The notes under the pieces are model-generated. The model did not search any database, was not told the DNA's origin, and saw nothing but the letters and a program-made list of their open reading frames with translations. Shown one piece after another: positions 2,601 through 58,613 of a stretch of DNA of 64,000 nucleotides. The DNA lies in the NCBI GenBank assembly GCA_024682255.1, contig GCA_024682255.1_4716.1; one strand, written 5' to 3'. Every line of letters begins with the position of its first letter. Position 1 is the stretch's first letter. The translations under genes were made by a program, and so were the position numbers. The DNA is from a phage.

Positions 2601-5594
2601 ATGAGCGTAACCAACAAAGATCTTGCTGAACAGCTCAATCGCTATATGCTTTCACCTATTGAAATGCAGGCTGTTGCAAGCGATATGATCCGTTTGGCCT
2701 CTGATGGCGAGTTAACCCTGGTTGACCCCAGCTGTCCGTTTGTTTATCTGCTGGAGGTTGCAACAGCAACGGCTGCGAACCAGAACGCGCGGGATGAGTC
2801 CCGTGTTCGCGAACTGTATCCGAAGCTTGCAACGAACTGGAACCAGCTCTATCGTTGGATGTATGATGAGTCGTACGTCGGACGTTTCGCAATGCCGGGT
2901 AAAACGGAAATCATTTATTCGTTAGGGTATCAGGAAATCCTCGATCGTGCGGTAGAAATTCCAAACAACGCCACCTCCGATGATTTAAGCCGTTCTTACA
3001 GCCGTAAGTTAGTGATACCACGTACGACGGCGTTTACGGTAGCCGGAATGGATTTCGGATTGCATTATCCCATCGAAATCCAGGTGCAAGCGCACGACCA
3101 GATCCGTGTCGTTTATAACACTGATAACATCAGCCCGCTGCAAACCTTGGAGAGTAACCAAGTTGAGTACGGGGTTGTTCGTGTAAAAGCGGGTAAAGTG
3201 TTGGTGATGCGTATCCCGCTGTTCCAGTTTAAAACGCTGGTAAAAGATGTACCGTTTAACAGCGTTCACGGGATGAACAGCAGCATTACCTTCGAAGATC
3301 AGTTTTACCACTGTCGTGCGTACATGTCGTCGGATAACGATACCTGGACGGAGATAGCGACAACACACAGTCAGCAGATCTACGATCCGTTAACACCAAC
3401 TATCGCGTTACAAGTAGAAGGGAACAAACTTAACTGGCGTGTTCCTGAAATTTATTTGTCTCAAGGTACGATGGATAAAAGCACCATTCGACTCGAGGTG
3501 TTGACGACGAAAGGGAAAATCAGCGTCGACCCGTCTGATTACGACGTGACCGATTGGAAAGATAACTACATCGATTTGTCACCAAAAGCCGAACAGAAAT
3601 ACAGTGCTCCACTAAGCGCGTTCAACATTAAAGGGATTTATAGCGAAGGGGCATTGTCGGGTGGACGATCTGCGTTAACGTTCGAGGAACAACGTGAACG
3701 TGTTATGGCGGGCGTGAACAAAACCAAGGTGCCGATCACAGGAACGCAGGTAGAGCTGGTGCTTCAAGATGCGGGTTATGGGATGGTGACCACCATCGAT
3801 AACGTAACCAATCGTTCGTTCCTGGCAACCCGAGATTTACCGCAATTGAGCGACAGCGTGCCGCAAGCCGGTTCGTTGATGGGGTCTTTCTATACGTCAG
3901 CTGCAGCATTGGTGAAAAGTAAGTTTGTCGCTGATAACGGCGATCGTATTACGATTAAACCGGATTGCTTGTATCGTGACAGTAACGGAAGTATCGCACT
4001 GTTGTCGGACGATGAAATTGACCGTATTAATGCAGGCAACTCCGATGCGAAGTTGAACGCGGTAAACAACGCCATGTTGTTTTACAGTCCGTTTCATTAC
4101 GTATTAGACGCAACAAGCGATTTCGACATCCATGCTTATTACCTGGATGCCCCTAAGATCGGCACACAAGCATTCCTCGACGCGAACGAGACAATCCCGT
4201 TAACCGCTATGGTGACCGGATACCGTCTGGATCGTATCGCTGAAGGATATCGTCTAAGCCTCATTGTAGAAGGTAACGACGCATGGAAGGCGCTCGACGA
4301 TAAAAACGTGCATATCCAGCTGGGGTTCAATCCGCGGGGTGAGGGTGATTATGCGACGATGTTGGCGTCACCGACAACCGATGAACAAGGTCGTCGTTTG
4401 TTCACCTTCGATATCACCACGAATTATGATTTTACGCGGATCCTGGCCGATGATTCCACGGCGTATGAACCGTATATCGCATTGACCTCTTTCTCGATGT
4501 ATGAATCGACACCGCGGGATTATTGGGCATCACTGCAGCAGTACCTGGAAATATTCCATGTGGTGACGGATTACGCACCGGAAGATGTCGACGGTATTTT
4601 ACACAGTGCTTCCGATAATTACCTGGTTAAGAAACTCACGCTTCAAAATGGGTATTGTTTCTACCGTGAACGTCTCACCGCAACCTTTGGTTATGATCTG
4701 GACGGTCTTTGGATGCGCTCTCGTACGGTGGCCTCGGAGATTACGTATAAACGTTACACCGAGAACATCCCGTGGGTGTATGATGAAGATATTCCAGCGA
4801 CGGATGAGACCGGTTCGGTTATCATCGAGCAAGGTGATGATGGTACGTTGTCGGTTAAATATCTACATCGTAAAGGTGACCCGAAATTAAACAGTGATGG
4901 AAGCCAAGCCTATCGTTATCTGAAAGGCGACATCATGAAAGATAATTACGGTAATCCGATCCCTGTCGATGAACGTGAAGTTCTGCGTAACCTGGACATG
5001 TTCTTTATTGATGCGTCGTATCTGCTCGCGAACGATACGGACGTGATTGACTATCGTAACACGATTCCTACTCAGCTTATCGAGTGGATCCAGAACGATA
5101 TCAGCACGTTCAAGAATTTCTGTTATGAGGAAACAGCGATTTCACTGTATCCTAAGCAATCGCTGGGGTATGTGGATGTTATTGTGGAAAACGGATTGGA
5201 AACAACGCTTCCTGCTGCCTTATCGTTCAACGTGACGCTTTACTTACCGGCTAAGCAATACGCAGACTTGGATCTACGTCAAGTCCTTCAAGCGATGGTA
5301 TCGAAAGTCATCAATGAATGTTTAACATCCCGTACAGTGGCTAAAGCAGAAATGATCGCGATGATTCGTGAGGAGGGTGGCGACGACATCCTGAACGTTG
5401 AAATCGATGATTTTGGACCAGGTAAGAACCTCAGTGTTTATACCGCGAAGAACGATGGTGTTCGTTGTGCGGTGAAGAAAGAGCTTTATGTTAAAGCGGA
5501 TGGTATCTTGTCCGTACGCGAAGCGATTGATGTGAATTTTGTGAAACACGCACAAAGCAACAGTTCAGCGCTAGCGGAAGGCCTTCGTGTCTAA
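2601..5594 (+). CDS. large hypothetical protein (997 aa), virion-type
   Basis: Long ORF, ATG 4 nt after the preceding stop, GAGGGA upstream; no catalytic motif recognised. Confidence 0.65.
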   Translation: MSVTNKDLAEQLNRYMLSPIEMQAVASDMIRLASDGELTLVDPSCPFVYLLEVATATAANQNARDESRVRELYPKLATNWNQLYRWMYDESYVGRFAMPGKTEIIYSLGYQEILDRAVEIPNNATSDDLSRSYSRKLVIPRTTAFTVAGMDFGLHYPIEIQVQAHDQIRVVYNTDNISPLQTLESNQVEYGVVRVKAGKVLVMRIPLFQFKTLVKDVPFNSVHGMNSSITFEDQFYHCRAYMSSDNDTWTEIATTHSQQIYDPLTPTIALQVEGNKLNWRVPEIYLSQGTMDKSTIRLEVLTTKGKISVDPSDYDVTDWKDNYIDLSPKAEQKYSAPLSAFNIKGIYSEGALSGGRSALTFEEQRERVMAGVNKTKVPITGTQVELVLQDAGYGMVTTIDNVTNRSFLATRDLPQLSDSVPQAGSLMGSFYTSAAALVKSKFVADNGDRITIKPDCLYRDSNGSIALLSDDEIDRINAGNSDAKLNAVNNAMLFYSPFHYVLDATSDFDIHAYYLDAPKIGTQAFLDANETIPLTAMVTGYRLDRIAEGYRLSLIVEGNDAWKALDDKNVHIQLGFNPRGEGDYATMLASPTTDEQGRRLFTFDITTNYDFTRILADDSTAYEPYIALTSFSMYESTPRDYWASLQQYLEIFHVVTDYAPEDVDGILHSASDNYLVKKLTLQNGYCFYRERLTATFGYDLDGLWMRSRTVASEITYKRYTENIPWVYDEDIPATDETGSVIIEQGDDGTLSVKYLHRKGDPKLNSDGSQAYRYLKGDIMKDNYGNPIPVDEREVLRNLDMFFIDASYLLANDTDVIDYRNTIPTQLIEWIQNDISTFKNFCYEETAISLYPKQSLGYVDVIVENGLETTLPAALSFNVTLYLPAKQYADLDLRQVLQAMVSKVINECLTSRTVAKAEMIAMIREEGGDDILNVEIDDFGPGKNLSVYTAKNDGVRCAVKKELYVKADGILSVREAIDVNFVKHAQSNSSALAEGLRV

Positions 5595-9343: not shown

Positions 9344-12139
9344 TTACGCTAATTTACCGAAACCGGCTTTCTGTAGTTTCTCGTTGATCAGTTTTGCTTC
9401 CGCGAAAACATAATCACGATACGCAGTCACTAACCCGTCCACCCGTGAGCGCAAGGCTTCTTCGAAGCTATACCACGCAGCGATTTCACGAATCTGTGCG
9501 TTGATATAATCAACGGTTGAGCGAAGCTCGGTTGCGTTTTCTTGCGGGATGGCTTTCACCTGGCGAGCAACGTCATTTAAACGACGGAACTGTGTTTCGA
9601 TTTCTTTAAACTTACTGTCCGCAAGTTTGCTGAATTCGTCACCGGAACGGGTGAATAACAGATAGCTGTTGCCGTCAAGTGCGGTTGCTAACTGCTGAAG
9701 TACGTTGGTGTCCGGATACACAGGAGTACCGCTTTGCAGTACTTTCTCACCGAATTCCGCGAAGTCCTTCGGTGGTAAGTGTGCAGACGTTGTCAACTCG
9801 TTGAAACGGAAAGTCAGCGAATTATCATACAGCATCCGGTACGCTTCCATACCCTGTTTCATGGTACCGGCCAGGTTAGCCAGACGCGGAGCAATCTCGC
9901 CTTCTTTAGCGCGTTTCTGGTCTTCTAACGCCCCTTCGAGTTCTTTACACTGGTCGTTCAGATACACGATACGATCGGGACGCAGACGACGCATCTCACG
10001 AAGAATAGTATCCAGCTTACCTTCCTGGAAATAACCTAACGTTAAAGACGTACACGCTTGCTGAAGACGATCGAACACCGGTAAGGTCACCATCTCCTTA
10101 CGGATACCATCAACAATCGCAGAAACAGCCGAAAGTTTCTGTTCTGTCGTTAATGGAACATCAGAGACCGACTTGCTGGGCGCACCAACAACGTTACGCA
10201 TTGCGTCGGTATCCTCGGTTTTATCAACCTCTTTACGAACATGCTCATCAGGAACATAAACGTTCGCGTTACGTTTCGCCTGCTTGATGGCGTCGTTGGC
10301 CGCTTTTTCGGTGGCCGCTACGCTATCGGCACGTTTCTTCAAGAGTTCAATAATCCAGAGCAACAGACGACGAATCGCTGTATAGGCGGTCGTGATGATG
10401 ACACCGATAACAGCCATCTTCATGATACCGAACGATTCCATGGTCGGCTCTAACGCCTGGTCCGGCATATACCGTTCACGCAGCTCCAGATAGATCTGCT
10501 CATCTGGTTTGCTGACCTCACCACGATGTGAAGTCCGATAGATGGCTTCGTCAATCTCAACAAGATCTTTGCGTGCCTGGCGATCGGATTCTGTTAAGTA
10601 AGCACAACCGGATACGTCGTCTTCGAAGCTTAAGAATTTGAAAAAGTCGCTGACATCGACGTTGACCTTCTTCGCTTCATTGTCAACGTTAATGAAATCC
10701 GTTTTACGAGACTGCTGTTGAATCTTAATATCCTTTATCGGTTTAAGCGCTTTGTCTTTTAATGCCTGCATGATCTGTTTCCAGCTGGCATCGCGTTCAA
10801 GAACAAGGAAATAGTTCTTGAGTTCGAATGCGCGATAGCGGGCAACAAGTTGTTCTACCTGAACATGAGCGAGTTGTACGTCCATCAGCCAACGCGACAT
10901 TGCCGAGATCAAACGGCTATAAGCAAGCAGCGTCTGATACGTCAGCTTCATGTGTTTCTCGTACAGCTCAATATCGCCGTCTTGAATATCAGCCGTTGGG
11001 TTCATTTCCTTCGTTGCTTTGAAGATTTGTTCGGCTTCATTTAACGTTTGTTCGAATTTGACTTCATTAAACGTGTCAAACGGTTCGGCCAACTCTACCA
11101 TTCGATCGTGAAGTTCACGAACCCAGGCTTCTTTATTGTTGCGAATAGCTGCGTCATCGTGAAGTTCAGTTTGATGTTTCTGTACCCATTCTTCGACGAT
11201 ATCAGCGGCGGCAACAATTCCTGTACCATCGGAAACTAACGGAACAACTCCAGCAAGTACGCCTACACATGCTGGGGTTTTCCAATAATCGTTCAAAGCG
11301 TTTCTGAATTCAACGATGGATTGTACGTTTGGTACTGTGTCCAAAAACGTACTGCCGTTACGGCTCATTGTCGTTACGATATCAGCGAATTCCTTCTGCT
11401 TAGCGGTAACAAAAGGAACCAGGACCATAAGCCATTCAGCAACCGATTTCGCTTTTTCTTTCAGGTTCTTGTCAGCGATTTCTTTAAGGTTTATCGCACC
11501 ACCGTAACCTGCAAGCTCTTTATATACGTCGCTAAGGGTCATCTGTTTATCCAACATTTCTTTGAAACGTGGATAATCAGCACCTAACGCATCGATAATA
11601 TCGTTGATTACGTCATCGGTTGTTGCAATAAACTTCTTCGTATCAACGTTTGAATATTTCCAGACGTACCGTACGGCTTTCTTGATTCCCGCAAAGATAA
11701 ACGCCCAAATACGCTTGATGAGTTCCCAGACTTTCTTCGCACCGTCGACAAACAGTTTAGAGACCTTGGCAACGAATCCTTCCTGTACCAACTCAACGCC
11801 GTTCCGTGATGGGATTTCGGTGAAGAAAGCATCTGGCAGTTGTTTCGGGAATGCGTCACCAAGACGCATACGCAGTTCCGGTACATCAGCACGAGAAATG
11901 CCGCGTGTTACTAACTGTTCGTGAAGACGAACGTTTTCTTCGCCAGAGGTCACGAATTCGTCAACATCGAAGGAGACCATTGCTTCCTGATCTTCGGTGG
12001 TAACGACGCTTGAACCGTCGCTGGTTTGGATGTCCTCGTCAGGGAACGCCATGAGCATACCGTGACGCATTTCAACCACTCCGTAATCGGTTGCTAAACC
12101 GAATTCGTTGTGATCGGGGGTAATAACCGGGATACTCAT
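9344..12139 (-). CDS. large hypothetical protein (931 aa) with one internal hydrophobic segment
   Basis: Long ORF; ATG overlaps the TGA of the upstream gene (ATGA); hydrophobic stretch MKMAVIGVIITTAYTAIRRLLLWII. Confidence 0.65.
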   Translation of the reverse strand: MSIPVITPDHNEFGLATDYGVVEMRHGMLMAFPDEDIQTSDGSSVVTTEDQEAMVSFDVDEFVTSGEENVRLHEQLVTRGISRADVPELRMRLGDAFPKQLPDAFFTEIPSRNGVELVQEGFVAKVSKLFVDGAKKVWELIKRIWAFIFAGIKKAVRYVWKYSNVDTKKFIATTDDVINDIIDALGADYPRFKEMLDKQMTLSDVYKELAGYGGAINLKEIADKNLKEKAKSVAEWLMVLVPFVTAKQKEFADIVTTMSRNGSTFLDTVPNVQSIVEFRNALNDYWKTPACVGVLAGVVPLVSDGTGIVAAADIVEEWVQKHQTELHDDAAIRNNKEAWVRELHDRMVELAEPFDTFNEVKFEQTLNEAEQIFKATKEMNPTADIQDGDIELYEKHMKLTYQTLLAYSRLISAMSRWLMDVQLAHVQVEQLVARYRAFELKNYFLVLERDASWKQIMQALKDKALKPIKDIKIQQQSRKTDFINVDNEAKKVNVDVSDFFKFLSFEDDVSGCAYLTESDRQARKDLVEIDEAIYRTSHRGEVSKPDEQIYLELRERYMPDQALEPTMESFGIMKMAVIGVIITTAYTAIRRLLLWIIELLKKRADSVAATEKAANDAIKQAKRNANVYVPDEHVRKEVDKTEDTDAMRNVVGAPSKSVSDVPLTTEQKLSAVSAIVDGIRKEMVTLPVFDRLQQACTSLTLGYFQEGKLDTILREMRRLRPDRIVYLNDQCKELEGALEDQKRAKEGEIAPRLANLAGTMKQGMEAYRMLYDNSLTFRFNELTTSAHLPPKDFAEFGEKVLQSGTPVYPDTNVLQQLATALDGNSYLLFTRSGDEFSKLADSKFKEIETQFRRLNDVARQVKAIPQENATELRSTVDYINAQIREIAAWYSFEEALRSRVDGLVTAYRDYVFAEAKLINEKLQKAGFGKLA

Positions 12140-48977: not shown

Positions 48978-49006
48978 GGTGAAGCTGATTACTGCATTGC
49001 TTCACC
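48978..49006 (-). terminator. hairpin (GGTGAAGC / GCTTCACC)
   Basis: Perfect 8-bp stem, 13-nt loop, downstream of the gene ending at 49045. Confidence 0.45.
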
Positions 49007-49044
49007 TAAGTAATATAGCCGTGAAAATTAATGTATTAACCTAT

Positions 49045-50001
49045 TCACGCTTTTGCTAAGTAGGGTTGGATCTCATTAATCCGTTTAACCACAACCTCAG
49101 GGAAAAGTTTGAGTATTTTATCAGGTGGTATTGAACCTTCCGTCCAACGATAGCGTTCAACCATCTCAATGCGTGGACTCCCTCCGACGTCAGCGATACG
49201 AAAGATACAGGCGATGCCTAAATCGAAGCATACGCTGTAAATATCTTCCGTACCTCCTTTATCAGCAAGTATTTTCGCAAAATGCTCGTTATCGGGAAGA
49301 ATGGCTAAATTACGGATACACCAAACATTATTCCCCATTTCTTCAAGTTTTGGGTAGGTTAAAGTGTGCCCGTATTGCGTTAACCATCGATGATTTTCGA
49401 GGTAGAAGTCCTTATCCCCTGGCCGATAACCCAGTATCACTCCCGTGTAGAAGAGATTGGGCATATCAAGCAGTTCTTGCACTGTCGGGCCGGTATGCTC
49501 CCAAAGACAGATTTGTTTACGGTCTATATCGTAATCTGTGACGTTACTCACCTCCCAACTTATCGTAAGTTCATCGGCAACGTGCCAACCTAAAGCGTGT
49601 TCGCCGCCAAGCAGATTAACAATGGTTGACACTTCATACTTGTCAAATACGCCTAAATTACGCGGTGGTTGCATCGTACGTAATGGCTCCCACAGCACAC
49701 TGTAATCATAGAGCAAATGGCGACATAAACTTTTTGTTAGGGGCGTCTGTTCAGTGAACAGGGGAAGAATCACCGTATCCAATAACGGGCGTAACGGATG
49801 ACCATCCGCTGGTAACGGGGCAGCCAGCCGACCTCCTTCTTTGGGGTAATCGAGACCAAACCCGTAACGCTCCGAAATGAGCGCAATCAACACTTTTGCT
49901 ACGCGGTTACGTAGCATGCGATGGATATCATCACTGTAACTGAATTTCGGTTTATTACCGCAAACGAAGGTGAAGTATCTGGGCGTTAGCACAGCCATCA
50001 T
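49045..50001 (-). CDS. hypothetical protein (318 aa)
   Basis: ATG with GAGGGAAAG upstream. Confidence 0.6.
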   Translation of the reverse strand: MMAVLTPRYFTFVCGNKPKFSYSDDIHRMLRNRVAKVLIALISERYGFGLDYPKEGGRLAAPLPADGHPLRPLLDTVILPLFTEQTPLTKSLCRHLLYDYSVLWEPLRTMQPPRNLGVFDKYEVSTIVNLLGGEHALGWHVADELTISWEVSNVTDYDIDRKQICLWEHTGPTVQELLDMPNLFYTGVILGYRPGDKDFYLENHRWLTQYGHTLTYPKLEEMGNNVWCIRNLAILPDNEHFAKILADKGGTEDIYSVCFDLGIACIFRIADVGGSPRIEMVERYRWTEGSIPPDKILKLFPEVVVKRINEIQPYLAKA

Positions 50002-50008
50002 CTTTCCC

Positions 50009-50455
50009 TCAATCTAAATAGTACGTGATGGATAGGTCTTTTCCATCGAATACAATATCCGTGCAGTCGTGAATGGTCGGTAATACCATTTTTGCTGCTA
50101 TTGGGACGTATGCCTGCAGTTCCATGTAGTTATTCATACGGAACGCACGACGCACCATCAACGGCGTTAATGTAAACGTTACGCTGACGTTACCGCTTGG
50201 GAGTAGGTGCATTATCGCATGCCCGTGATCACACCAGCAATGGTTTTCGATCCATCCGGTGTAAATCAGAATGTCTTTATTCTCGTCGTAATAAGCAATG
50301 CCTGACTGCTTTAAGTGGCTGGTAAACCGAGAGGCTTGCTCGTAGCCTGCGCGCAACATTCGAGCAACCAGTCGAGTATTGTTAGCGATTCGATTCTGTT
50401 CGTTGGTTTTTGTGGTTTTGAAAATTTCGATACGTTCTGCTTTTGTAATTTGCAT
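50009..50455 (-). CDS. hypothetical protein (148 aa) with His/Cys cluster
   Basis: ATG with AGGA upstream; NHCWCDHGHAIMH may bind metal. Confidence 0.55.
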   Translation of the reverse strand: MQITKAERIEIFKTTKTNEQNRIANNTRLVARMLRAGYEQASRFTSHLKQSGIAYYDENKDILIYTGWIENHCWCDHGHAIMHLLPSGNVSVTFTLTPLMVRRAFRMNNYMELQAYVPIAAKMVLPTIHDCTDIVFDGKDLSITYYLD

Positions 50456-50532
50456 GGTTACTGTCCTATTGCATTGTGTTTAGATAAGGAGGATTTACCC
50501 GGTATTAAAAAGTTATTTGGTGTGTAATGTTT

Positions 50533-51132
50533 TTACTTAGGTTCCAGTATTGGTCCGAACAACCAGAATGTCAGGCGCTGGTAAACCTGTTCGATGACTG
50601 CGGCTTCTGTTTGTTCTTCTAGTGCTTTCCCTTTCTTATGTTGTATTTCTGGCGGGATGTCGCCGTTGTAAACATACCCTGTTGAGAAGTCCCACGCCAA
50701 CCGTTTACCGAAAGTGGGTAAGAACACCTCTTCGAATCGGAACGCTTTCGAATTCCAATGAAGCAGCTGATCGGATTCAACATGTAAAGCTTTATTACGT
50801 TTGCTTGGCATGTTTCCGAAGTACTGAACGATAGCTGATTTCATAACCTGATCTGCGAAGTCTTTAGCTTCGGCCTCATCGAGGGGAGGCAGACGATGTG
50901 ATAGATTCAGCTTGCGTTGTTCAACATCAATCTTACGCATCGCTTTAATCAAATCACCAGGAACGATTTTACCCTTATGGCCTTCCTGTCGGTGTACGAA
51001 ACACCCCTGGAATAACACGCAAAGTTCTTGAGGCGCGCTGCTTTCCATTCGTCCGTAAGCAACGATCACCGATCGACGACGATCGATAACTTCGCGGATA
51101 AACCGCGGCTCAGTAATACTCACCACTGTCAT
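50533..51132 (-). CDS. hypothetical protein (199 aa)
   Basis: ATG with AGAGGG upstream. Confidence 0.55.
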   Translation of the reverse strand: MTVVSITEPRFIREVIDRRRSVIVAYGRMESSAPQELCVLFQGCFVHRQEGHKGKIVPGDLIKAMRKIDVEQRKLNLSHRLPPLDEAEAKDFADQVMKSAIVQYFGNMPSKRNKALHVESDQLLHWNSKAFRFEEVFLPTFGKRLAWDFSTGYVYNGDIPPEIQHKKGKALEEQTEAAVIEQVYQRLTFWLFGPILEPK

Positions 51133-51176
51133 TTAAAGCCCTCTTTATCTTTTTCCATTTCTCTTTACATAACCAC

Positions 51177-51863
51177 TTAAGACGTTGCCATCTTATCTTC
51201 CAGAGACTTCTTCGGTAAACCATGGATAACTCCTTCCGGGGTTAAGAACACACAGTCTGGATTCTGCGTTCGTGAACGGTCGTCTGGACTGTTCAACGAA
51301 AACAGCAATGCAGAAATACCTTTTGTCCGATTTAACGTTGCGACGATCACGTCAAGCTGCCGTAGCGCATCCGATACGGTTCGATGAGGAACGATTCGTG
51401 ACTGTTTGAAGCTGGCTAACCGCCAAGTCTCGAACAAACAACGCAGTTTAAACACGTCGGACGGAATAGCTGTAGATCCCTGTTCAATAACCTCAACCCG
51501 ATCCGCTTCAGGATAACCTACAGCAACCGCACTAAAGTGTCTTACCCCATTATGAAAATCATCGATAGACGCTTCAGCGTATTTACATACCGTGCCAGAA
51601 ACGACCATCACTTTTGCTAAACCGCGATAATTGATCGTTAACGGAATACGAAATACGCGTAAAGCATGTTCCGGATTTAATGAGACGTCATTCACTTTCG
51701 CAGATACCAACGCACCTCGTTCATATCGAGCTTTGAACGGCAGCCCATTATAAACAGGATTGATCACAACGCCCCCTGGGGAGGCGTTAGCGTTAAGATG
51801 AATGTTAAGCCAATCGGATACTTCCTGTCTGCTGGTTACGATTAACATAAAACGGTCCTCCAT
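51177..51863 (-). CDS. hypothetical protein (~229 aa)
   Basis: ATG (MEDRFM...) with AAGGAAAAG upstream, just after the methyltransferase stop; earlier in-frame ATG would overlap that gene. Confidence 0.5.
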   Translation of the reverse strand: MEDRFMLIVTSRQEVSDWLNIHLNANASPGGVVINPVYNGLPFKARYERGALVSAKVNDVSLNPEHALRVFRIPLTINYRGLAKVMVVSGTVCKYAEASIDDFHNGVRHFSAVAVGYPEADRVEVIEQGSTAIPSDVFKLRCLFETWRLASFKQSRIVPHRTVSDALRQLDVIVATLNRTKGISALLFSLNSPDDRSRTQNPDCVFLTPEGVIHGLPKKSLEDKMATS

Positions 51864-51873
51864 TTCTTTTCCT

Positions 51874-52524
51874 TCATTCATGGCGCATATCTTCCAAATC
51901 ATCCTTTTGTTTTGTAAATTCTGATTGCTTGCGATAAACCTCCCATGAGTCGTATATACCGTAAAAGTTCAAATGGCGTGCATTTAAGTTCACAGTAAAT
52001 TCTTCCACAGAGGCAAAATCCGAACGAAGCATCGAATGGAAGGTGTCATCTCCAGTGCAGCCTCCGTATCCTTCACCCTGATAGACCAAAAGCTGGTGAG
52101 GTTGGATACGTGCGGCAACCAATGCGGCTTGTGGTTCGTCGTAAGGTGGCCATGACAGTAGAATAACGTCGTACTGTGAAAGATCGATGTTTGTGTAGTC
52201 GGCTTGCTGAATGTCCTCGATAAACGGGTGGGGATGTAATTCCGTATCGTAAGCGGCAATGTCCTCAACACCAAGTTTACGCAACACATAGGTCAGGTAA
52301 CCTGTCCCACAACCCAGGTCAGCAACACGTCGCCCGTAACAGATGTTCGCTAACTGGAGCGCGGTATCCATGGTTAACAACGACCATCCGACGTGTTGGG
52401 TATATTCTTCACGCACAATCCATTGTTGATGGTGCGTCATCGGTTCTAAGATAGCAGCAAGCTGCTGGTACGCCAACGGCATTTTGGTTTCGCCTTGCGT
52501 GAGTAATGCAATAACATCGTTCAT
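51874..52524 (-). CDS. class I SAM-dependent methyltransferase (~217 aa)
   Basis: Motif I VADLGCGTGYLT, acidic post-I residue (AYDTE), motif IV-like LLSWPPY; ATG (MNDVIALL...) chosen because the track N-terminus spans a terminator hairpin. Confidence 0.6.
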   Translation of the reverse strand: MNDVIALLTQGETKMPLAYQQLAAILEPMTHHQQWIVREEYTQHVGWSLLTMDTALQLANICYGRRVADLGCGTGYLTYVLRKLGVEDIAAYDTELHPHPFIEDIQQADYTNIDLSQYDVILLSWPPYDEPQAALVAARIQPHQLLVYQGEGYGGCTGDDTFHSMLRSDFASVEEFTVNLNARHLNFYGIYDSWEVYRKQSEFTKQKDDLEDMRHE

Positions 52525-52548
52525 TTTGTTTCCTTTTATCGGCATAAG

Positions 52549-52567
52549 CCCTCCCATGCCGGGAGGG
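52549..52567 (-). terminator. hairpin (CCCTCCC-atgcc-GGGAGGG)
   Basis: Perfect 7-bp stem just after the gene ending at 52573. Confidence 0.5.
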
Positions 52568-52572
52568 TACAA

Positions 52573-53001
52573 TTATTCATTTTCAATAACTTTAAGATTC
52601 GGTGTACCGAGCGTTTTCTTCACCAACGCCTCGGCAACACGTTTCTCGATGAAATCGGTCGCATTGCTTCCGTCTATCGTGCGCATGTCACCACGGAAGT
52701 TATTGAAGACCATAAACAAGTCACAACCGTCGATAGGTATCGCAAGATCATAACTGACTTGTGATGCTGTGAAATGGACACCCACGACAACGGCGGGAAC
52801 GAATTTAACCGCTGTGTTATCTCCTTCTTCTCCGGTTCCGAACGGAAGCTCAACACGATCACCGATAGAGAACTGTGAGACATCATTAATCGCGTGAGTT
52901 AGTGCGATTCGTTGCATGTCGGCGATCTTTTCCTTATTCGCGTCGCAAGGTAGGTTCAAGACTTCTTCCAACGTGAAGAATTTACGATCGAACCAGCTCA
53001 T
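52573..53001 (-). CDS. hypothetical protein (142 aa)
   Basis: ATG with AAGGAG 7 nt upstream. Confidence 0.6.
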   Translation of the reverse strand: MSWFDRKFFTLEEVLNLPCDANKEKIADMQRIALTHAINDVSQFSIGDRVELPFGTGEEGDNTAVKFVPAVVVGVHFTASQVSYDLAIPIDGCDLFMVFNNFRGDMRTIDGSNATDFIEKRVAEALVKKTLGTPNLKVIENE

Positions 53002-53002
53002 G

Positions 53003-53536
53003 TTAAGCTCCTTTCTGTTTTACGGACGATGTTAACCAGGACGATCTTACCGTGAAACCCTCAGACTCATAGAACGCCTGGGCTTCAGCGTTATCGGCAC
53101 GAACATCCAGGCCAATAGAATGCCCACCGCACTGGTAAGCGATGTTACGTGCTTCGTTCATCAAGGCGTGGCCGATACCACGTCCGCGATATTCGGGTTT
53201 TACAACAATCGATGTAACGTCATGAATGCCCATATGGCTCTCTATATTCACTTCCAAGAGGCCTACCGGCATCGAAGCGATGGCGTCGATCATAACGACC
53301 AACTTTGCAGTGTCCGGTAAACGCTTTTCTAATTCTAAGGCATCGTACTCGCGTTTTAAATCGGGGATATTCTCAAACATAAACGTGGTAGCCCAAGCCT
53401 CTGATTCTACGTCGTCGAGAATACGGTACAGCTCACGAATCTGTCGTTTATGTGGGTAAAGGTGTGGATCGGCGGCCGTTGAGGCGATAACGCAATAGAA
53501 CGGCCGTTCATTAATAACTACTGTTTTGATGCTCAT
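53003..53536 (-). CDS. GNAT-family N-acetyltransferase (177 aa)
   Basis: Acetyl-CoA-binding motif region VVKPEYRGRGIGHALMNEA; ATG overlaps upstream TGA. Confidence 0.65.
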   Translation of the reverse strand: MSIKTVVINERPFYCVIASTAADPHLYPHKRQIRELYRILDDVESEAWATTFMFENIPDLKREYDALELEKRLPDTAKLVVMIDAIASMPVGLLEVNIESHMGIHDVTSIVVKPEYRGRGIGHALMNEARNIAYQCGGHSIGLDVRADNAEAQAFYESEGFTVRSSWLTSSVKQKGA

Positions 53537-54039
53537 GCTAAAATTCCCTCATTACCTAACAGTCGATTACGATGACGTCGGTACATTTGACAAAGTGTTG
53601 TGATTTGATAATGTTTGTTGTAACGCACCTCGATACGTTTTTGCACCTCTTTCCATGGAAGTTTATCGTATTGCCGATAACGATGGATTTCATTTAACAT
53701 ACGAAGACGAGTAGGATCGGTGTTCTTTATCGTCGTGAGCTTCACGCGTTGGTATCCGCGCTGTAGTCCCGATTCGGAATACGTGACATCAAACTCATCC
53801 TGAATGATGGTAATGATCTCCCGCCACCGACGGTTCTCGCCATCACGTAAATGGACAACCCGCGATAAGATATCGTTCCGATTACGATGACTCAGTTTGA
53901 TGTTAAGCATTGAAGCAATCGCGCTAATGGCTCTCTGACTCCGTCCTAACGCTTCACCTATTTCTTTCGATGTCATGACGCCCGCGTTTCGGCGTATGAA
54001 TGCGATTTCGGTTGTTGTGTATTCTTTACCTGCTGCCAT
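53533..54039 (-). CDS. HTH-domain protein, member 6 of a tandem paralog array
   Basis: YTTTEIAFIRRNAGVMTSKEIGEALGRSQRAISAIASML helix-turn-helix-like unit plus conserved C-terminal region; 67-nt overlap with the upstream gene. Confidence 0.5.
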   Translation of the reverse strand: MAAGKEYTTTEIAFIRRNAGVMTSKEIGEALGRSQRAISAIASMLNIKLSHRNRNDILSRVVHLRDGENRRWREIITIIQDEFDVTYSESGLQRGYQRVKLTTIKNTDPTRLRMLNEIHRYRQYDKLPWKEVQKRIEVRYNKHYQITTLCQMYRRHRNRLLGNEGILA

Positions 54040-54503
54040 TTCTTACCACGTGTGTTATAATAGTAACGCTGACAAAGATGTGTGTGACGATACTCCCGTT
54101 TGAACTCGACGCTAATGATGCGAGCAACTTCTCTCCAGTTAACCCCTTCACGTCGAAGTGCTGTAATACGGTCTGAAATTTTGCACCATTCATCTGGGTC
54201 GTATCGACGTAGCTTAAGTCGTCGTATTACGGAGGCGACGCTCGCTCTCGATCGGCCAAGATGATTTGACAGCTGTTTAACCGAGTATCTGTGGATATTG
54301 TCACGAATATAGGAAATCTCGTTGTTCGTATATGCCTCATTGGTTCTCGACGAAGGGAACAGCATATACAACTTATTCTTAATCGCGCTTTCTGTGCGTT
54401 GAAATACAGCAGCCAGCTCACTAACCGGTGGTCTGGGTATCTGGTCCGCGTAATTCTCGAGGCGTGAGAGTTCCTCATCTGTCCAGCGACGGTATTTGCG
54501 CAT
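53973..54503 (-). CDS. double-HTH protein, member 5 of the array
   Basis: Start set to ATG (MRKYRRWTDEEL...) with AAGGAG upstream; two HTH-like units. Confidence 0.55.
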   Translation of the reverse strand: MRKYRRWTDEELSRLENYADQIPRPPVSELAAVFQRTESAIKNKLYMLFPSSRTNEAYTNNEISYIRDNIHRYSVKQLSNHLGRSRASVASVIRRLKLRRYDPDEWCKISDRITALRREGVNWREVARIISVEFKREYRHTHLCQRYYYNTRGKKWQQVKNTQQPKSHSYAETRAS

Positions 54504-54978
54504 AGGCAGCTCCTTTGTTTTTCGTGTAGTAACACCAACGTTGATACAACGCATGTTTATTCGTTGTAATCCCAAATTTAACAACAACGTCGTAGGTAAT
54601 AACATCCCAATTTTGGGTGACGTTAAGTCGTTCCGCGATAAACGCGATAATCGCTTCCCGTTCTTGCTTGGTGAGCGCACGACGAATTCCGTTAAGCCGT
54701 ATAAACTGACGAACCGAGTCATACGAACGGTTTAAATCGTACGCAATCTCCCGCAGCGATTTTTGTCTGATTACCGACTTGATGTATGCGCGTTCTTCTT
54801 CCGTGTACGGCCGATGCTTTTGACGTTGACGTATTCCCAAACGCCCCAGACGCGCGTCGACGCTGGCGCGTGTTCGTCCTGTCCGTTGCGCAATTTCATC
54901 AATCGTCATCGACGTGTTCAAATACAGATGCGTAACATCTTTCAGCTCGTCGTCACGCCACGGTTGAGATCGTCCCAT
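54475..54978 (-). CDS. double-HTH protein, member 4 of the array
   Basis: WRDDELKDVTHLYLNTSMTIDEIAQRTGRTRASVDARL and YTEEERAYIKSVIRQKSLREIAYDLNRSYDSVRQFI units; GAGGGA upstream. Confidence 0.6.
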   Translation of the reverse strand: MGRSQPWRDDELKDVTHLYLNTSMTIDEIAQRTGRTRASVDARLGRLGIRQRQKHRPYTEEERAYIKSVIRQKSLREIAYDLNRSYDSVRQFIRLNGIRRALTKQEREAIIAFIAERLNVTQNWDVITYDVVVKFGITTNKHALYQRWCYYTKNKGAAYAQIPSLDR

Positions 54979-55456
54979 CTTGTATCCCTCTTTTCTTTCT
55001 ATGATGCCACCAACGCTGATAGACAGCTTGCTTCGTACGTGTTATACCGAAATGCTCATTAACCCGTTCAGCAATGTAGTACCAATCCTGTGTTTCTTCC
55101 AACAATCTATCAACGAAGGCTATGAAGATCTTAGTATCAGCCTCGCTTAACCGCTTAAAACCATGACGGTGTGCAATCGTTCTAATACTGTTTGGATCCC
55201 TGTTTAAATCGCGTGCGAGTTGTTTGTAACTTTTGTGTTTGCAGTGCACTCTGATATATTCCAGCTCACCGACGCTGAAACGTTTATGGGGTTTACGACG
55301 TTCAACATTTAAGTATACCAACCTCGATTTAATTGCACCGTACGTTGTTTCCATGATTTCTGCGATTTCACGGATTTTTAATTTCGGGTGACGATAGTAC
55401 AATTCCAGCAACTGTTCATCATCCTTACGATTCCATCGTCGTACTGGAGGTTTCAC
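54953..55456 (-). CDS. double-HTH protein, member 3 of the array
   Basis: GTG start with AGGAG upstream; WNRKDDEQLLELYY...IREIAEIMETTYGAIKSRL and second unit. Confidence 0.55.
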   Translation of the reverse strand: MKPPVRRWNRKDDEQLLELYYRHPKLKIREIAEIMETTYGAIKSRLVYLNVERRKPHKRFSVGELEYIRVHCKHKSYKQLARDLNRDPNSIRTIAHRHGFKRLSEADTKIFIAFVDRLLEETQDWYYIAERVNEHFGITRTKQAVYQRWWHHRKKRGIQDGTISTVA

Positions 55457-55469
55457 AACGAGATTTCTC

Positions 55470-55937
55470 CTATTCTACGCGTTTTAATGCTTGAGTGTAG
55501 TAGAGGCTATGAACACCGCTTAACGTGTAATGGGTGTTAAATTCATTATTGATGATGTTCCGTATTCTCTCCCAGGTGTTATTCTCTTTTCTAAGGGCGT
55601 GTATTCGATAATAAATCATCTCTCGACGTTGCGCTTTGCATGCAACAATACCGTAACGGTAGCAGAGTTTAGCGATTGCGTCCACGCTACGATTGAACAT
55701 CGCTGCAGCTTCTTTTACGCTATGCGTCTTAAGATAATCAGCTAACATCACACGTTCTTCGAAACAACAATAGCGGTGACGCGACATGAGTTTCCAGCGC
55801 TTGCGATTGCGGTTAATTCGACCTTGAACAGAGCCTTCTGTTCGGTCAAGCCGTGCCGCAATCTCTTGCATCGGGATACCGTTTCGGTACAGGGTAATCA
55901 ATATCGCGTCTTCTTCGGGTGTCCAGTCCTTGACCAT
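55470..55937 (-). CDS. double-HTH protein, member 2 of the array
   Basis: WTPEEDAILITLYRNGIPMQEIAARLDRTEGSVQGRI and second unit; ATG start. Confidence 0.6.
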   Translation of the reverse strand: MVKDWTPEEDAILITLYRNGIPMQEIAARLDRTEGSVQGRINRNRKRWKLMSRHRYCCFEERVMLADYLKTHSVKEAAAMFNRSVDAIAKLCYRYGIVACKAQRREMIYYRIHALRKENNTWERIRNIINNEFNTHYTLSGVHSLYYTQALKRVE

Positions 55938-55949
55938 AGCGCCACCCCA

Positions 55950-58613
<2,664 letters not shown>

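What the first reader, a model, noticed from the sequence alone, without database searches (positions are those of the whole stretch)
51874..53536. Small methyltransferase with atypical SWPPY motif clustered with a GNAT acetyltransferase
The methyltransferase has motif I (VADLGCGTGYLT) followed by a motif IV-like SWPPY in place of the canonical (D/N/S)PP(Y/F/W) of amino-methyltransferases, and no separate target-recognition domain (about 217 aa). Two genes away is a GNAT acetyltransferase, with unknown proteins between and around them. This could be a nucleic-acid or protein modification module (for example an anti-restriction modification or modification of a host factor) rather than a standard DNA methyltransferase.
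Basis: partly seen in the sequence, partly recalled or inferred. Interest (0 to 1): 0.4.

Follow-up and report, generated by a model that had tools for sequence, protein, structure and literature searches.

The report
Orphan viral methyltransferase beside unrelated acetyltransferase
A small gene in a Goslar-like giant E. coli phage encodes a real but uncharacterised methyltransferase-type enzyme from a large family found almost only in big viruses; it is not a DNA methylase, and the acetyltransferase nearby is only a neighbour in this phage lineage, not a conserved partner.

Summary
The window is about 95% identical to the nucleus-forming jumbo phage Goslar. It encodes a 216-aa class I SAM methyltransferase-fold protein (Goslar gp111), a 142-aa unknown protein (gp112) and a GNAT acetyltransferase (gp113), all on the minus strand.

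SWPPY does sit where the (D/N/S)PP(Y/F/W) motif of amino-methyltransferases sits, directly after strand beta4. Across 159 relatives, however, the conserved motif is [S/C/T]-W-P-x-Y: the Trp is invariant and the second Pro is variable. The family also has a near-invariant G-E-G-x-G-G-C-T-[G/A]-D-D loop after beta5.

This catalytic half matches nothing in PDB or Pfam. The family is large: 1305 clusters at E<=1e-30. It is almost entirely virus-borne (jumbo phages, haloarchaeal viruses, giant viruses), acidic, single-domain and without any characterised member. A standard DNA methyltransferase is very unlikely.

The methyltransferase-GNAT "module" is not supported. About 33 non-Goslar loci have no GNAT nearby and no recurrent neighbour of any kind. 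In Klebsiella jumbo phages that carry both genes, they lie about 105-200 kb apart.

My best reading is a stand-alone accessory SAM-dependent enzyme acting on a non-DNA substrate. The substrate is unknown.

The parts
51874..52524 (-). CDS of the 216-aa class I SAM methyltransferase-fold protein, orthologue of Goslar gp111. An alternative in-frame ATG at 52545 gives 223 aa.
52291..52326 (-). Motif I, VADLGCGTGYLT (aa 67-78): the GxGxG SAM-binding loop after beta1.
   Evidence: Translation. G71, G73 and G75 are conserved in 143-158 of 159 homologues.
52141..52155 (-). SWPPY (aa 124-128), at the motif IV position directly after beta4. The family consensus is [S/C/T]-W-P-x-Y.
   Evidence: Translation. 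Strand 120-124 in the AF2 model. W is in 159/159, P in 157/159 and Y in 138/159 homologues; position 127 varies (P/D/C/N/E...).
52045..52077 (-). GEGYGGCTGDD (aa 150-160): family-specific Gly-rich loop after beta5 with near-invariant Glu151 and Cys156.
   Evidence: Translation. G150 is in 159/159, E151 in 157/159, G155 in 157/159, C156 in 157/159 and T157 in 147/159 homologues. This loop has low pLDDT in the model (block 151-160 = 62), so it is probably flexible.
52549..52567 (-). Intergenic hairpin CCCUCCC-GGCAU-GGGAGGG between gp112 and the methyltransferase gene. Its 3' arm is the Shine-Dalgarno-like GGGAGGG of the upstream ATG.
   Evidence: Sequence. The stem is identical while the loop differs in five Goslar-lineage genomes, with loops GGCAT, GTGTC, GACAT and GGTAT. 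It is the only such hairpin in the window, against 0 expected. The z-score of the wider 71-nt fold is only -1.58.
52573..53001 (-). CDS of the 142-aa acidic protein of unknown function (Goslar gp112 orthologue).
   Evidence: ORF list. No Pfam, PHROG, NCBIfam or PADLOC hit. Outside Goslar the only phage homologue is in Erwinia phage Bue1, at E 7e-4 and in an unrelated context. dN/dS is 0.10.
53003..53536 (-). CDS of the 177-aa GNAT N-acetyltransferase (Goslar gp113 orthologue). Acetyl-CoA motif A, RGRGIG, is at 53171-53188.
   Evidence: Pfam Acetyltransf_1 at 56.1 bits (cut-off 20.7), plus Acetyltransf_7 and Acetyltransf_10. Its matches to RimI (56 bits) and PaiA are below the equivalog cut-offs. 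PDB relatives are SpeG and other diamine acetyltransferases and RimI, at E 1e-5 to 1e-7. Motif coordinates.

Best explanation
The 216-aa protein is a catalytically competent, stand-alone SAM-dependent transferase with the class I methyltransferase fold. It is an accessory gene of a Goslar-like nucleus-forming jumbo phage. It belongs to a large, almost exclusively virus-borne family with no characterised member.

**Shown**
- The Rossmann methyltransferase fold.
- An intact SAM-binding GxGxG loop and the beta2 acidic residue D93.
- Two family-specific loops at the expected substrate cleft. One is [S/C/T]-W-P-x-Y after beta4. The other is G-E-G-x-G-G-C-T-[G/A]-D-D after beta5. Further conserved residues are R38 and the G-I-H/Y-D192-x-W194 segment.

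**Inferred**
- SAM binds as in other class I enzymes.
- Its methyl group is passed to a nucleophile held between the Trp/Tyr aromatic faces and the acidic, Cys-containing loop.

**Substrate**
- The Trp replaces the D/N/S that binds the target amino group in amino-methyltransferases.
- The protein has no nucleic-acid-binding domain and a net charge of about -18.
- The substrate is therefore most likely not DNA.
- My best guess, at about 35%, is a cationic target. This could be a lysine or N-terminus of a basic host or phage protein, or an amine metabolite.
- Free nucleotides or RNA come next.

**The GNAT**
It is an ordinary, independently evolving RimI/SpeG-like N-acetyltransferase that happens to lie two genes upstream in this lineage.
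For: **Identity**
- The region is 95.2% identical to Goslar over 7.5 kb and carries the RefSeq annotation.
- Goslar is described as nucleus-forming in PMC11895373.

**Fold**
- AF2 pLDDT is 85.5.
- Foldseek against PDB gives only generic hits at E around 1e-5.

**Family size and motifs**
- The profile search gives 8035, 5101 and 1305 cluster representatives at E<=1e-3, 1e-10 and 1e-30.

**Uniqueness**
- A profile of the half from beta4 onward finds nothing in PDB at E<=10 and nothing in Pfam.
- Pfam and NCBIfam hits on the whole protein are all below cut-off and confined to motifs I-IV.

**Viral distribution**
- 33 phage records, comprising jumbo phages and the haloarchaeal viruses PhiCh1, phiH and HGTV-1.
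- Klosneuvirus-type giant viruses in BFVD.
- 25 IMG/VR loci, including a giant-virus MAG.
- Only 3 MAG loci among 185,579 species genomes.

**Substrate hints**
- Acidic composition: query pI 4.67; the median of 235 members is 5.2.
- Protein-type hints: a TPR fusion in P0102, METTL21A as the top Foldseek hit, and PrmA as the best NCBIfam hit, at E 8.8e-5 and far below its cut-off.

**No module**
and 16 compared with 40.

**Purifying selection**
Against: **No biochemistry exists for any family member.** Sources give only the names 'hypothetical protein' or 'SAM-dependent methyltransferase', and PhiH1_425/PhiCh1 ORF83 are listed as uncharacterised in PMC6210493.

**The substrate class rests on indirect arguments:** charge, absence of extra domains and rare fusions.

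**Some evidence points toward nucleic acid.**
- The best PDB sequence matches are METTL5 (single sequence, E 0.002) and an archaeal 23S rRNA m5U methyltransferase (profile, E 5e-6).
- PhiCh1/phiH homologues sit directly after an N4-cytosine DNA methyltransferase.
- One metagenomic locus has a C5 DNA methyltransferase 1.3 kb upstream.

**An invariant Cys is not needed for N- or O-methylation.** This hints at different chemistry.

**The methyltransferase, gp112 and the GNAT could still cooperate in this lineage.** They are co-directional and tightly spaced throughout it.
Confidence: 0.6

Rival explanations
1. It is a nucleic-acid base methyltransferase. It would either modify phage DNA to evade restriction or modify host or phage RNA (rRNA or tRNA), acting as a minimal catalytic core derived from (N/D)PP(F/Y) amino-methyltransferases.
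Against: The invariant Trp replaces the D/N/S that hydrogen-bonds the exocyclic amine, and the second Pro is not conserved. There is no target-recognition or RNA-binding domain in 216 aa. Net charge is -17.7, and 78% of family members have pI below 6. All methyltransferase family hits fall below curated cut-offs and cover only motifs I-IV. DNA-methyltransferase adjacency does not recur in the 33-locus comparison. Goslar replicates its DNA inside a protein shell, which already limits restriction (general knowledge; nucleus formation is cited).
Confidence: 0.2
2. It uses covalent catalysis like pyrimidine C5-methyltransferases. Cys156 in the loop after beta5 would attack C6 of a uracil or cytosine, with Glu151 and the Asp pair assisting. 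The substrate would possibly be a free nucleotide held by the Gly-rich loop.
Confidence: 0.12
3. The methyltransferase, gp112 and the GNAT form one functional unit that modifies a common substrate. One example would be methylation plus acetylation of amines such as polyamines or a host protein.
For: The three genes are co-directional and tightly packed. The GNAT start overlaps the stop of the gene upstream of it (gp114), gp112 starts 1 nt after the GNAT stop, and the methyltransferase follows after 48 nt. The order is kept in all Goslar-lineage contigs examined. The GNAT's nearest solved relatives include spermidine and diamine N-acetyltransferases. The methyltransferase cleft is aromatic and acidic, compatible with amine substrates (inference).
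Against: Synteny is seen only among phages that are more than 80% identical, where it carries no information. There is no GNAT or gp112 homologue within 4 kb of the methyltransferase in about 33 other loci. In four Klebsiella/Serratia-type jumbo phages with both genes, they are about 105-200 kb apart. The gp112 and GNAT homologues elsewhere lack the partners. The whole block of more than 25 genes is co-directional, so proximity is the default. A conserved hairpin separates the methyltransferase from GNAT-gp112.
Confidence: 0.1
4. It is not an enzyme but a SAM-binding protein, either a sink or a sensor, or a degenerate methyltransferase fold used as a scaffold.
For: Degenerate copies do exist: P0122, a 1932-aa protein, carries four repeats that have lost the W-P and GEG..C motifs. 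No activity has been shown for any member.
Against: Near-invariance of about 15 polar, aromatic and Gly residues clustered in the two cleft loops across sequences only about 25-40% identical is the signature of catalysis. dN/dS is 0.157.
Confidence: 0.05

Closest known systems
Small 'MTS'-type amino-methyltransferases with an (N/D)PP(F/Y) motif: METTL5, RsmC/RsmD, HemK/PrmC, Mtq2 (Pfam PF05175)
   Different: The first motif IV residue is an invariant Trp instead of Asn/Asp, and the second Pro is variable. The protein scores below the PF05175 cut-off, 18.8 against 23 bits. It also has the extra GEGxGGCTGDD loop, which has no counterpart in PDB or Pfam, and it is strongly acidic.
RumA/TrmA-type RNA uracil-C5 methyltransferases (for example P. 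horikoshii 23S rRNA m5U747 methyltransferase, PDB 8z62)
   Different: The match covers only motifs I-IV. The Cys spacing differs, there is no TRAM or RNA-binding domain, and the C-terminal half is unmatched.
Seven-beta-strand protein methyltransferases: the METTL21 family, PrmA, CypM
   Same: Compact class I enzymes that methylate protein amines and have an aromatic residue three positions after the first post-beta4 residue. METTL21A is the top Foldseek PDB hit, and PrmA is the top NCBIfam hit. A family member is fused to TPR repeats.
   Different: Similarity is generic: TM at most 0.52, with E around 1e-5 for METTL21A and about 9e-5 for PrmA. The acidic D/E of their D-x-x-Y motif is Trp here. 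No protein substrate is known.
RimI and SpeG/PaiA-type GNAT N-acetyltransferases (for the neighbouring gene)
   Same: GNAT fold with the acetyl-CoA motif RGRGIG. Best NCBIfam hit is RimI at 56 bits. PDB hits are SpeG, diamine acetyltransferases and RimI.
   Different: It falls below the equivalog cut-offs (56 against 86.4 for RimI; 35 against 250 for PaiA), so the substrate cannot be assigned. Close homologues exist only in Goslar-like phages.

Membership tests
Class I (Rossmann-fold) SAM-dependent methyltransferase superfamily | Gly-rich motif I (GxGxG) after beta1 | tested here: met
   VADLGCGTGYLT at aa 67-78. G71, G73 and G75 are conserved in 143-158 of 159 homologues.
Class I (Rossmann-fold) SAM-dependent methyltransferase superfamily | Acidic residue at the end of beta2 that binds the SAM ribose | tested here: met
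   D93 ends strand 89-93 in the AF2 model. It is Asp in 152 and Glu in 3 of 159 homologues.
Class I (Rossmann-fold) SAM-dependent methyltransferase superfamily | Alternating alpha/beta fold with the seven-stranded sheet | tested here: met
Class I (Rossmann-fold) SAM-dependent methyltransferase superfamily | Binds SAM and transfers a methyl group | not testable with these tools
   Needs biochemistry. No family member has been characterised.
Amino-methyltransferases (N6-adenine/N4-cytosine DNA methyltransferases and relatives) | Motif IV (D/N/S)-P-P-(Y/F/W) directly after beta4 | tested here: not met
   The first loop residue after beta4 is Trp in 159/159 homologues. The following Pro is conserved but the next position varies (P/D/C/N/E...). 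The preceding S/C/T is the last residue of the strand.
Amino-methyltransferases (N6-adenine/N4-cytosine DNA methyltransferases and relatives) | Target-recognition domain for DNA | tested here: not met
   The 216 aa are fully accounted for by the methyltransferase core plus four N-terminal helices. pI is 4.67 and net charge -17.7.
Pyrimidine C5-methyltransferases (DNA m5C; RNA m5C/m5U) | Catalytic Cys in motif IV (P-C) or directly after beta5 (T-C / S-C-N-P), plus family-level sequence match | tested here: inconclusive
   There is no Cys in motif IV. A near-invariant Cys156 lies in the post-beta5 loop but with different spacing. There is no Pfam DNA_methylase or m5U family hit. The 8z62 match covers only motifs I-IV, and the C-terminal half is unmatched.
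PHROG 19090 (phage protein family of unknown function) | Significant profile match over most of the protein | tested here: met
   E 3.1e-18, with residues 53-214 matching profile positions 34-190 of 191.
GNAT acetyltransferase superfamily (neighbouring gene 53003-53536) | Pfam GNAT domain above the gathering score, and acetyl-CoA motif A (R/Q-x-x-G-x-G/A) | tested here: met
   Acetyltransf_1 at 56.1 bits (cut-off 20.7), Acetyltransf_7 at 50.4 (cut-off 27). RGRGIG at aa 117-122.
RimI (ribosomal protein S18 alanine acetyltransferase) equivalog | Score above the NCBIfam TIGR01575 cut-off | tested here: not met
   56 bits against a cut-off of 86.4.
Conserved methyltransferase-GNAT gene module | The two genes are neighbours in independent lineages | tested here: not met
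   No GNAT lies within 4 kb of the methyltransferase in about 33 non-Goslar loci. The two genes are about 105-200 kb apart in Klebsiella/Serratia-type jumbo phages that have both.

The most novel reading that the evidence does not exclude
The Goslar-type protein is the first member in a culturable E. coli phage of a virus-wide enzyme family spanning jumbo phages, haloarchaeal viruses and giant viruses. In this reading the family uses the methyltransferase fold for chemistry not yet described for class I enzymes. The chemistry would be Cys156/Glu151-dependent modification of a free nucleotide, an immune signalling molecule or an amine metabolite, serving host takeover or counter-defence. A point in its favour is that one distant jumbo-phage homologue sits directly beside a homologue of the Thoeris inhibitor Tad3.
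Probability: 0.12. Interest if true: 0.7.

Novelty: new variant of a known kind. Interest (0 to 1): 0.35.

Why it matters
For this locus alone the result is deflating: the methyltransferase-GNAT "module" is just gene order inherited within one phage genus.

The methyltransferase itself is a better lead. It represents a family of more than a thousand sequence clusters that is almost confined to large viruses of bacteria, archaea and eukaryotes. The family keeps a full SAM-binding site but has replaced the catalytic motif of amino-methyltransferases and added an invariant Cys/Glu loop. Nothing in PDB or Pfam resembles that half.

Goslar grows on E. coli and is already a cell-biology model for the phage nucleus. 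A knockout and a substrate screen are therefore practical, and they would assign a function to the whole family.

Tried and rejected
**Known families.** I looked for a curated family among Pfam, NCBIfam, PADLOC and PDB sequences. Only sub-threshold, motif I-IV hits appeared.

**Domain fusions.** TPR repeats in one protein. A possible transglutaminase-like tail in two, not significant at E 0.15. Other extensions had no hits.

**Conserved neighbours.** I examined 10 contig look-ups, 7 annotated phage regions and 25 IMG/VR loci, then ran all-against-all BLASTP and phmmer on the neighbouring ORFs. Nothing recurs.
- DNA-methyltransferase adjacency occurs in PhiCh1/phiH and L016.
- Tad3 adjacency occurs in L019.
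- Each was seen in a single lineage, so I rejected both as general associations.

**Literature.** Searches on Goslar gp111, Chimalliviridae methyltransferases, phage methyltransferases in anti-defence, PhiCh1 ORF83 and Tad3 found no functional data.

**The 223-aa RefSeq start.** Rejected in favour of the 216-aa start.
Full report
**What the window is.** The region 49000-56500 is 95.2% identical at the DNA level to Escherichia phage vB_EcoM_Goslar, a 237-kb jumbo phage. PMC11895373 describes Goslar as nucleus-forming. The flagged genes are the orthologues of three Goslar genes:
- gp111, annotated 'class I SAM-dependent methyltransferase'
- gp112, hypothetical
- gp113, acetyltransferase

They lie in a long block of co-directional minus-strand genes. 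That block also contains an NAD-dependent DNA ligase and an array of Myb/SANT-like proteins.

**Checking the observation.**
- The methyltransferase ORF ends at 51874 and has in-frame ATGs at 52545 and 52524.
- In a related Goslar-lineage contig (L050) the upstream ATG is out of frame, and the gene is called as 216 aa.
- In the window the upstream Shine-Dalgarno-like GGGAGGG is the 3' arm of a conserved hairpin, while AAGGAA precedes the ATG at 52524.
- I therefore take 52524 as the start, giving 216 aa.
- VADLGCGTGYLT is at 52291-52326 and SWPPY at 52141-52155.
- The 142-aa ORF is at 52573-53001. The GNAT is at 53003-53536 (Pfam Acetyltransf_1 at 56.1 bits against a cut-off of 20.7; motif RGRGIG).
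- All three genes are under purifying selection relative to Goslar, with dN/dS of 0.157, 0.10 and 0.054.

**What the methyltransferase is.** An AlphaFold2 model built on 18 homologues is confident (pLDDT 85.5, pTM 0.84). It shows the class I methyltransferase fold preceded by four N-terminal helices.
- Motif I follows beta1.
- D93 ends beta2.
- SWPPY begins exactly where strand beta4 (residues 120-124) stops.

Beyond the fold, assignment fails.
- Every Pfam and NCBIfam hit is below its curated cut-off and covers only motifs I-IV.
- Foldseek against PDB gives generic hits at E around 1e-5 with TM at most 0.52.
- The only specific match is PHROG 19090, 'unknown function'.

**The family.**
- A word-indexed search found 21 relatives.
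- A profile search of 1.84 billion cluster representatives found 8035, 5101 and 1305 at E<=1e-3, 1e-10 and 1e-30. Nearly all are stand-alone proteins of 170-260 aa.
- Across 159 aligned members, conserved positions are R38, G71, G73, G75 and D93. Conservation continues with W125 (159/159), P126 (157/159), Y128 (138/159) and G150 (159/159). It also covers E151, G155 and C156 (157/159 each), T157, G/A158, D159, D160, F162, H184, G189, D192 and W194.
- The residue before the Trp is S, C or T, and the residue after the first Pro is variable.
- The real motif is therefore [S/C/T]-W-P-x-Y, not a variant of (D/N/S)PP(Y/F/W).
- A profile of the half from beta4 onward finds nothing in PDB at E<=10 and nothing in Pfam.
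- No source gives the family a name other than 'hypothetical protein' or 'SAM-dependent methyltransferase'. The halovirus members PhiH1_425 and PhiCh1 ORF83 are listed as uncharacterised.

**Where the family lives.**
- Among sequenced phages it occurs in 33 records. Most are jumbo phages of Aeromonas, Klebsiella, Salmonella, Xanthomonas, Stenotrophomonas, Pseudomonas and Raoultella. The rest are the haloarchaeal viruses PhiCh1, phiH and HGTV-1, and a Streptococcus phage.
- Structure search of viral proteins adds Klosneuvirus-type giant viruses, Bodo saltans virus and Fadolivirus.
- IMG/VR gave 25 loci, including a giant-virus MAG.
- A comparable pattern scan of one genome for each of 185,579 bacterial and archaeal species returned only three MAG contigs.
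- The family is therefore essentially virus-borne. The caveat is that these scans used narrow peptide patterns.

**Is there a methyltransferase-GNAT module?** No.
- The order GNAT-gp112-methyltransferase is kept in Goslar-like phages that are 83-97% identical. At that distance synteny says nothing about function.
- I collected about 33 non-redundant loci from other lineages, extracted all ORFs within 4 kb of the methyltransferase and compared them all against all. No neighbour family is shared by three or more loci, and none is shared with the window.
- phmmer with the window's GNAT, gp112 and gp110 finds only themselves.
- Four Klebsiella/Serratia-type jumbo phages carry both a family member and a GNAT homologue, but about 105-200 kb apart.
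- The gp112 homologue in Erwinia phage Bue1 and the GNAT homologue in Serratia phage Moabite have neither partner nearby.
- Within the window, GNAT and gp112 are separated by 1 nt. The methyltransferase follows after 48 nt containing a hairpin whose stem is conserved and whose loop varies among five lineage members.

**What it most likely does.**
- *Shown:* the fold, an intact cofactor site, and clustering of the conserved polar, aromatic and Gly residues in the two loops (after beta4 and after beta5). In class I enzymes these two loops frame the substrate next to the SAM methyl group.
- *Inferred:* it is an active SAM-dependent transferase.
- The substrate is unknown, but some classes can be ranked.
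- DNA is unlikely, for four reasons. The H-bonding D/N/S is replaced by Trp. There is no recognition domain. The protein carries a net charge of about -18 (pI 4.67). The family as a whole is acidic, with median pI 5.2 and 78% of members below 6.
- An aromatic-plus-acidic cleft suits a cationic nucleophile such as a protein lysine, an N-terminus or an amine metabolite. Supporting hints are a TPR-fused member and protein methyltransferases at the top of the Foldseek and NCBIfam lists. I put this at roughly 35%.
- RNA or DNA base methylation of the ordinary kind gets about 20%. A non-catalytic role gets about 5%.

**The GNAT.** It is a typical GNAT with the acetyl-CoA motif. Its nearest characterised relatives are RimI and spermidine or diamine acetyltransferases, but it falls well below the equivalog cut-offs. 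Close homologues are confined to Goslar-like phages. Its substrate cannot be assigned.

**Comparison with known systems and novelty.** The protein is a member of the class I methyltransferase superfamily; motif I, the beta2 acid and the fold were all tested and met.
- It is not a member of the (D/N/S)PP(Y/F/W) amino-methyltransferases. Motif IV and a recognition domain were both tested and not met.
- It cannot be placed among the C5-methyltransferases; that test was inconclusive.
- RefSeq already labels it generically.
- What is new is the recognition that it belongs to a large virus-restricted family with its own catalytic signature and no characterised member. I rate this a new variant of a known kind.

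**Verdict.** 'Not a standard DNA methyltransferase' is supported, and 'modification module with the GNAT' is not. Interest is moderate to low (0.35): as first framed, the locus is ordinary. The methyltransferase family is a reasonable target for functional work because Goslar is experimentally tractable.

Noticed in passing
window 53536-56270 (- strand): Six tandem genes directly upstream of the GNAT (Goslar gp114-gp119 orthologues) are paralogues of one another, at 23-38% identity with E down to 1e-27. They carry Myb/SANT-like helix-turn-helix repeats, and several have overlapping stop and start codons. PHROG 323 labels one of them 'transcriptional regulator, D5-like'.
   Followed up: partly
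window 50456-50532 and 56263-56270, compared with L001 (Goslar) 4459-4875 and 10617-11324: Two Goslar genes, gp108 (138 aa) and gp120 (235 aa), are absent from the entire 64-kb window. They look like gene-sized indels between closely related phages. gp120 is also missing between the ligase and the Myb array in L018, L050 and L051.
   Followed up: partly
window 52549-52567 (- strand): A 7-bp GC-only hairpin, CCCUCCC-N5-GGGAGGG, lies between gp112 and the methyltransferase gene. Its stem is identical in five Goslar-lineage genomes but the loops differ (four variants). It has no U-tract and is unique in the window. It may be an RNA processing or stability element, or a translational occluder of the upstream ATG.
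   Followed up: partly
L019 5816-6946 (metagenomic 236.6-kb jumbo-phage contig): The gene immediately downstream of a 41%-identical methyltransferase family member matches Pfam PF25185, 'Type I Thoeris inhibitor Tad3', at E 4e-22. This places that homologue in an anti-defence neighbourhood. It was seen in one locus only.
   Followed up: partly
proteins P0122, P0067, P0129 (from; sequences): Some family members are internally repeated. P0122 (1932 aa, high-GC) has four copies of the domain that have lost the W-P and GEG..C motifs and look like pseudo-enzymes. P0067 and P0129 (AT-rich, giant-virus-like) carry two copies each, mostly with the motifs intact (the second copy of P0129 is degenerate).
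   Followed up: no
proteins P0140, P0167, P0102: Rare fusions occur. Two members carry a roughly 130-aa C-terminal domain with a Cys...His...Asp pattern that weakly resembles transglutaminase-like cores (Pfam E 0.15, not significant). One 871-aa member has N-terminal TPR repeats.
   Followed up: partly
L011 2056-3974 (PhiCh1) and phiH: In the haloviruses PhiCh1 and phiH, the family member (ORF83/PhiH1_425) overlaps the stop of an N4-cytosine DNA methyltransferase gene (M.PhiCh1-III), and a C5 methyltransferase lies two genes further upstream. This is the only lineage where the family sits inside a DNA-methylation cluster.
   Followed up: partly
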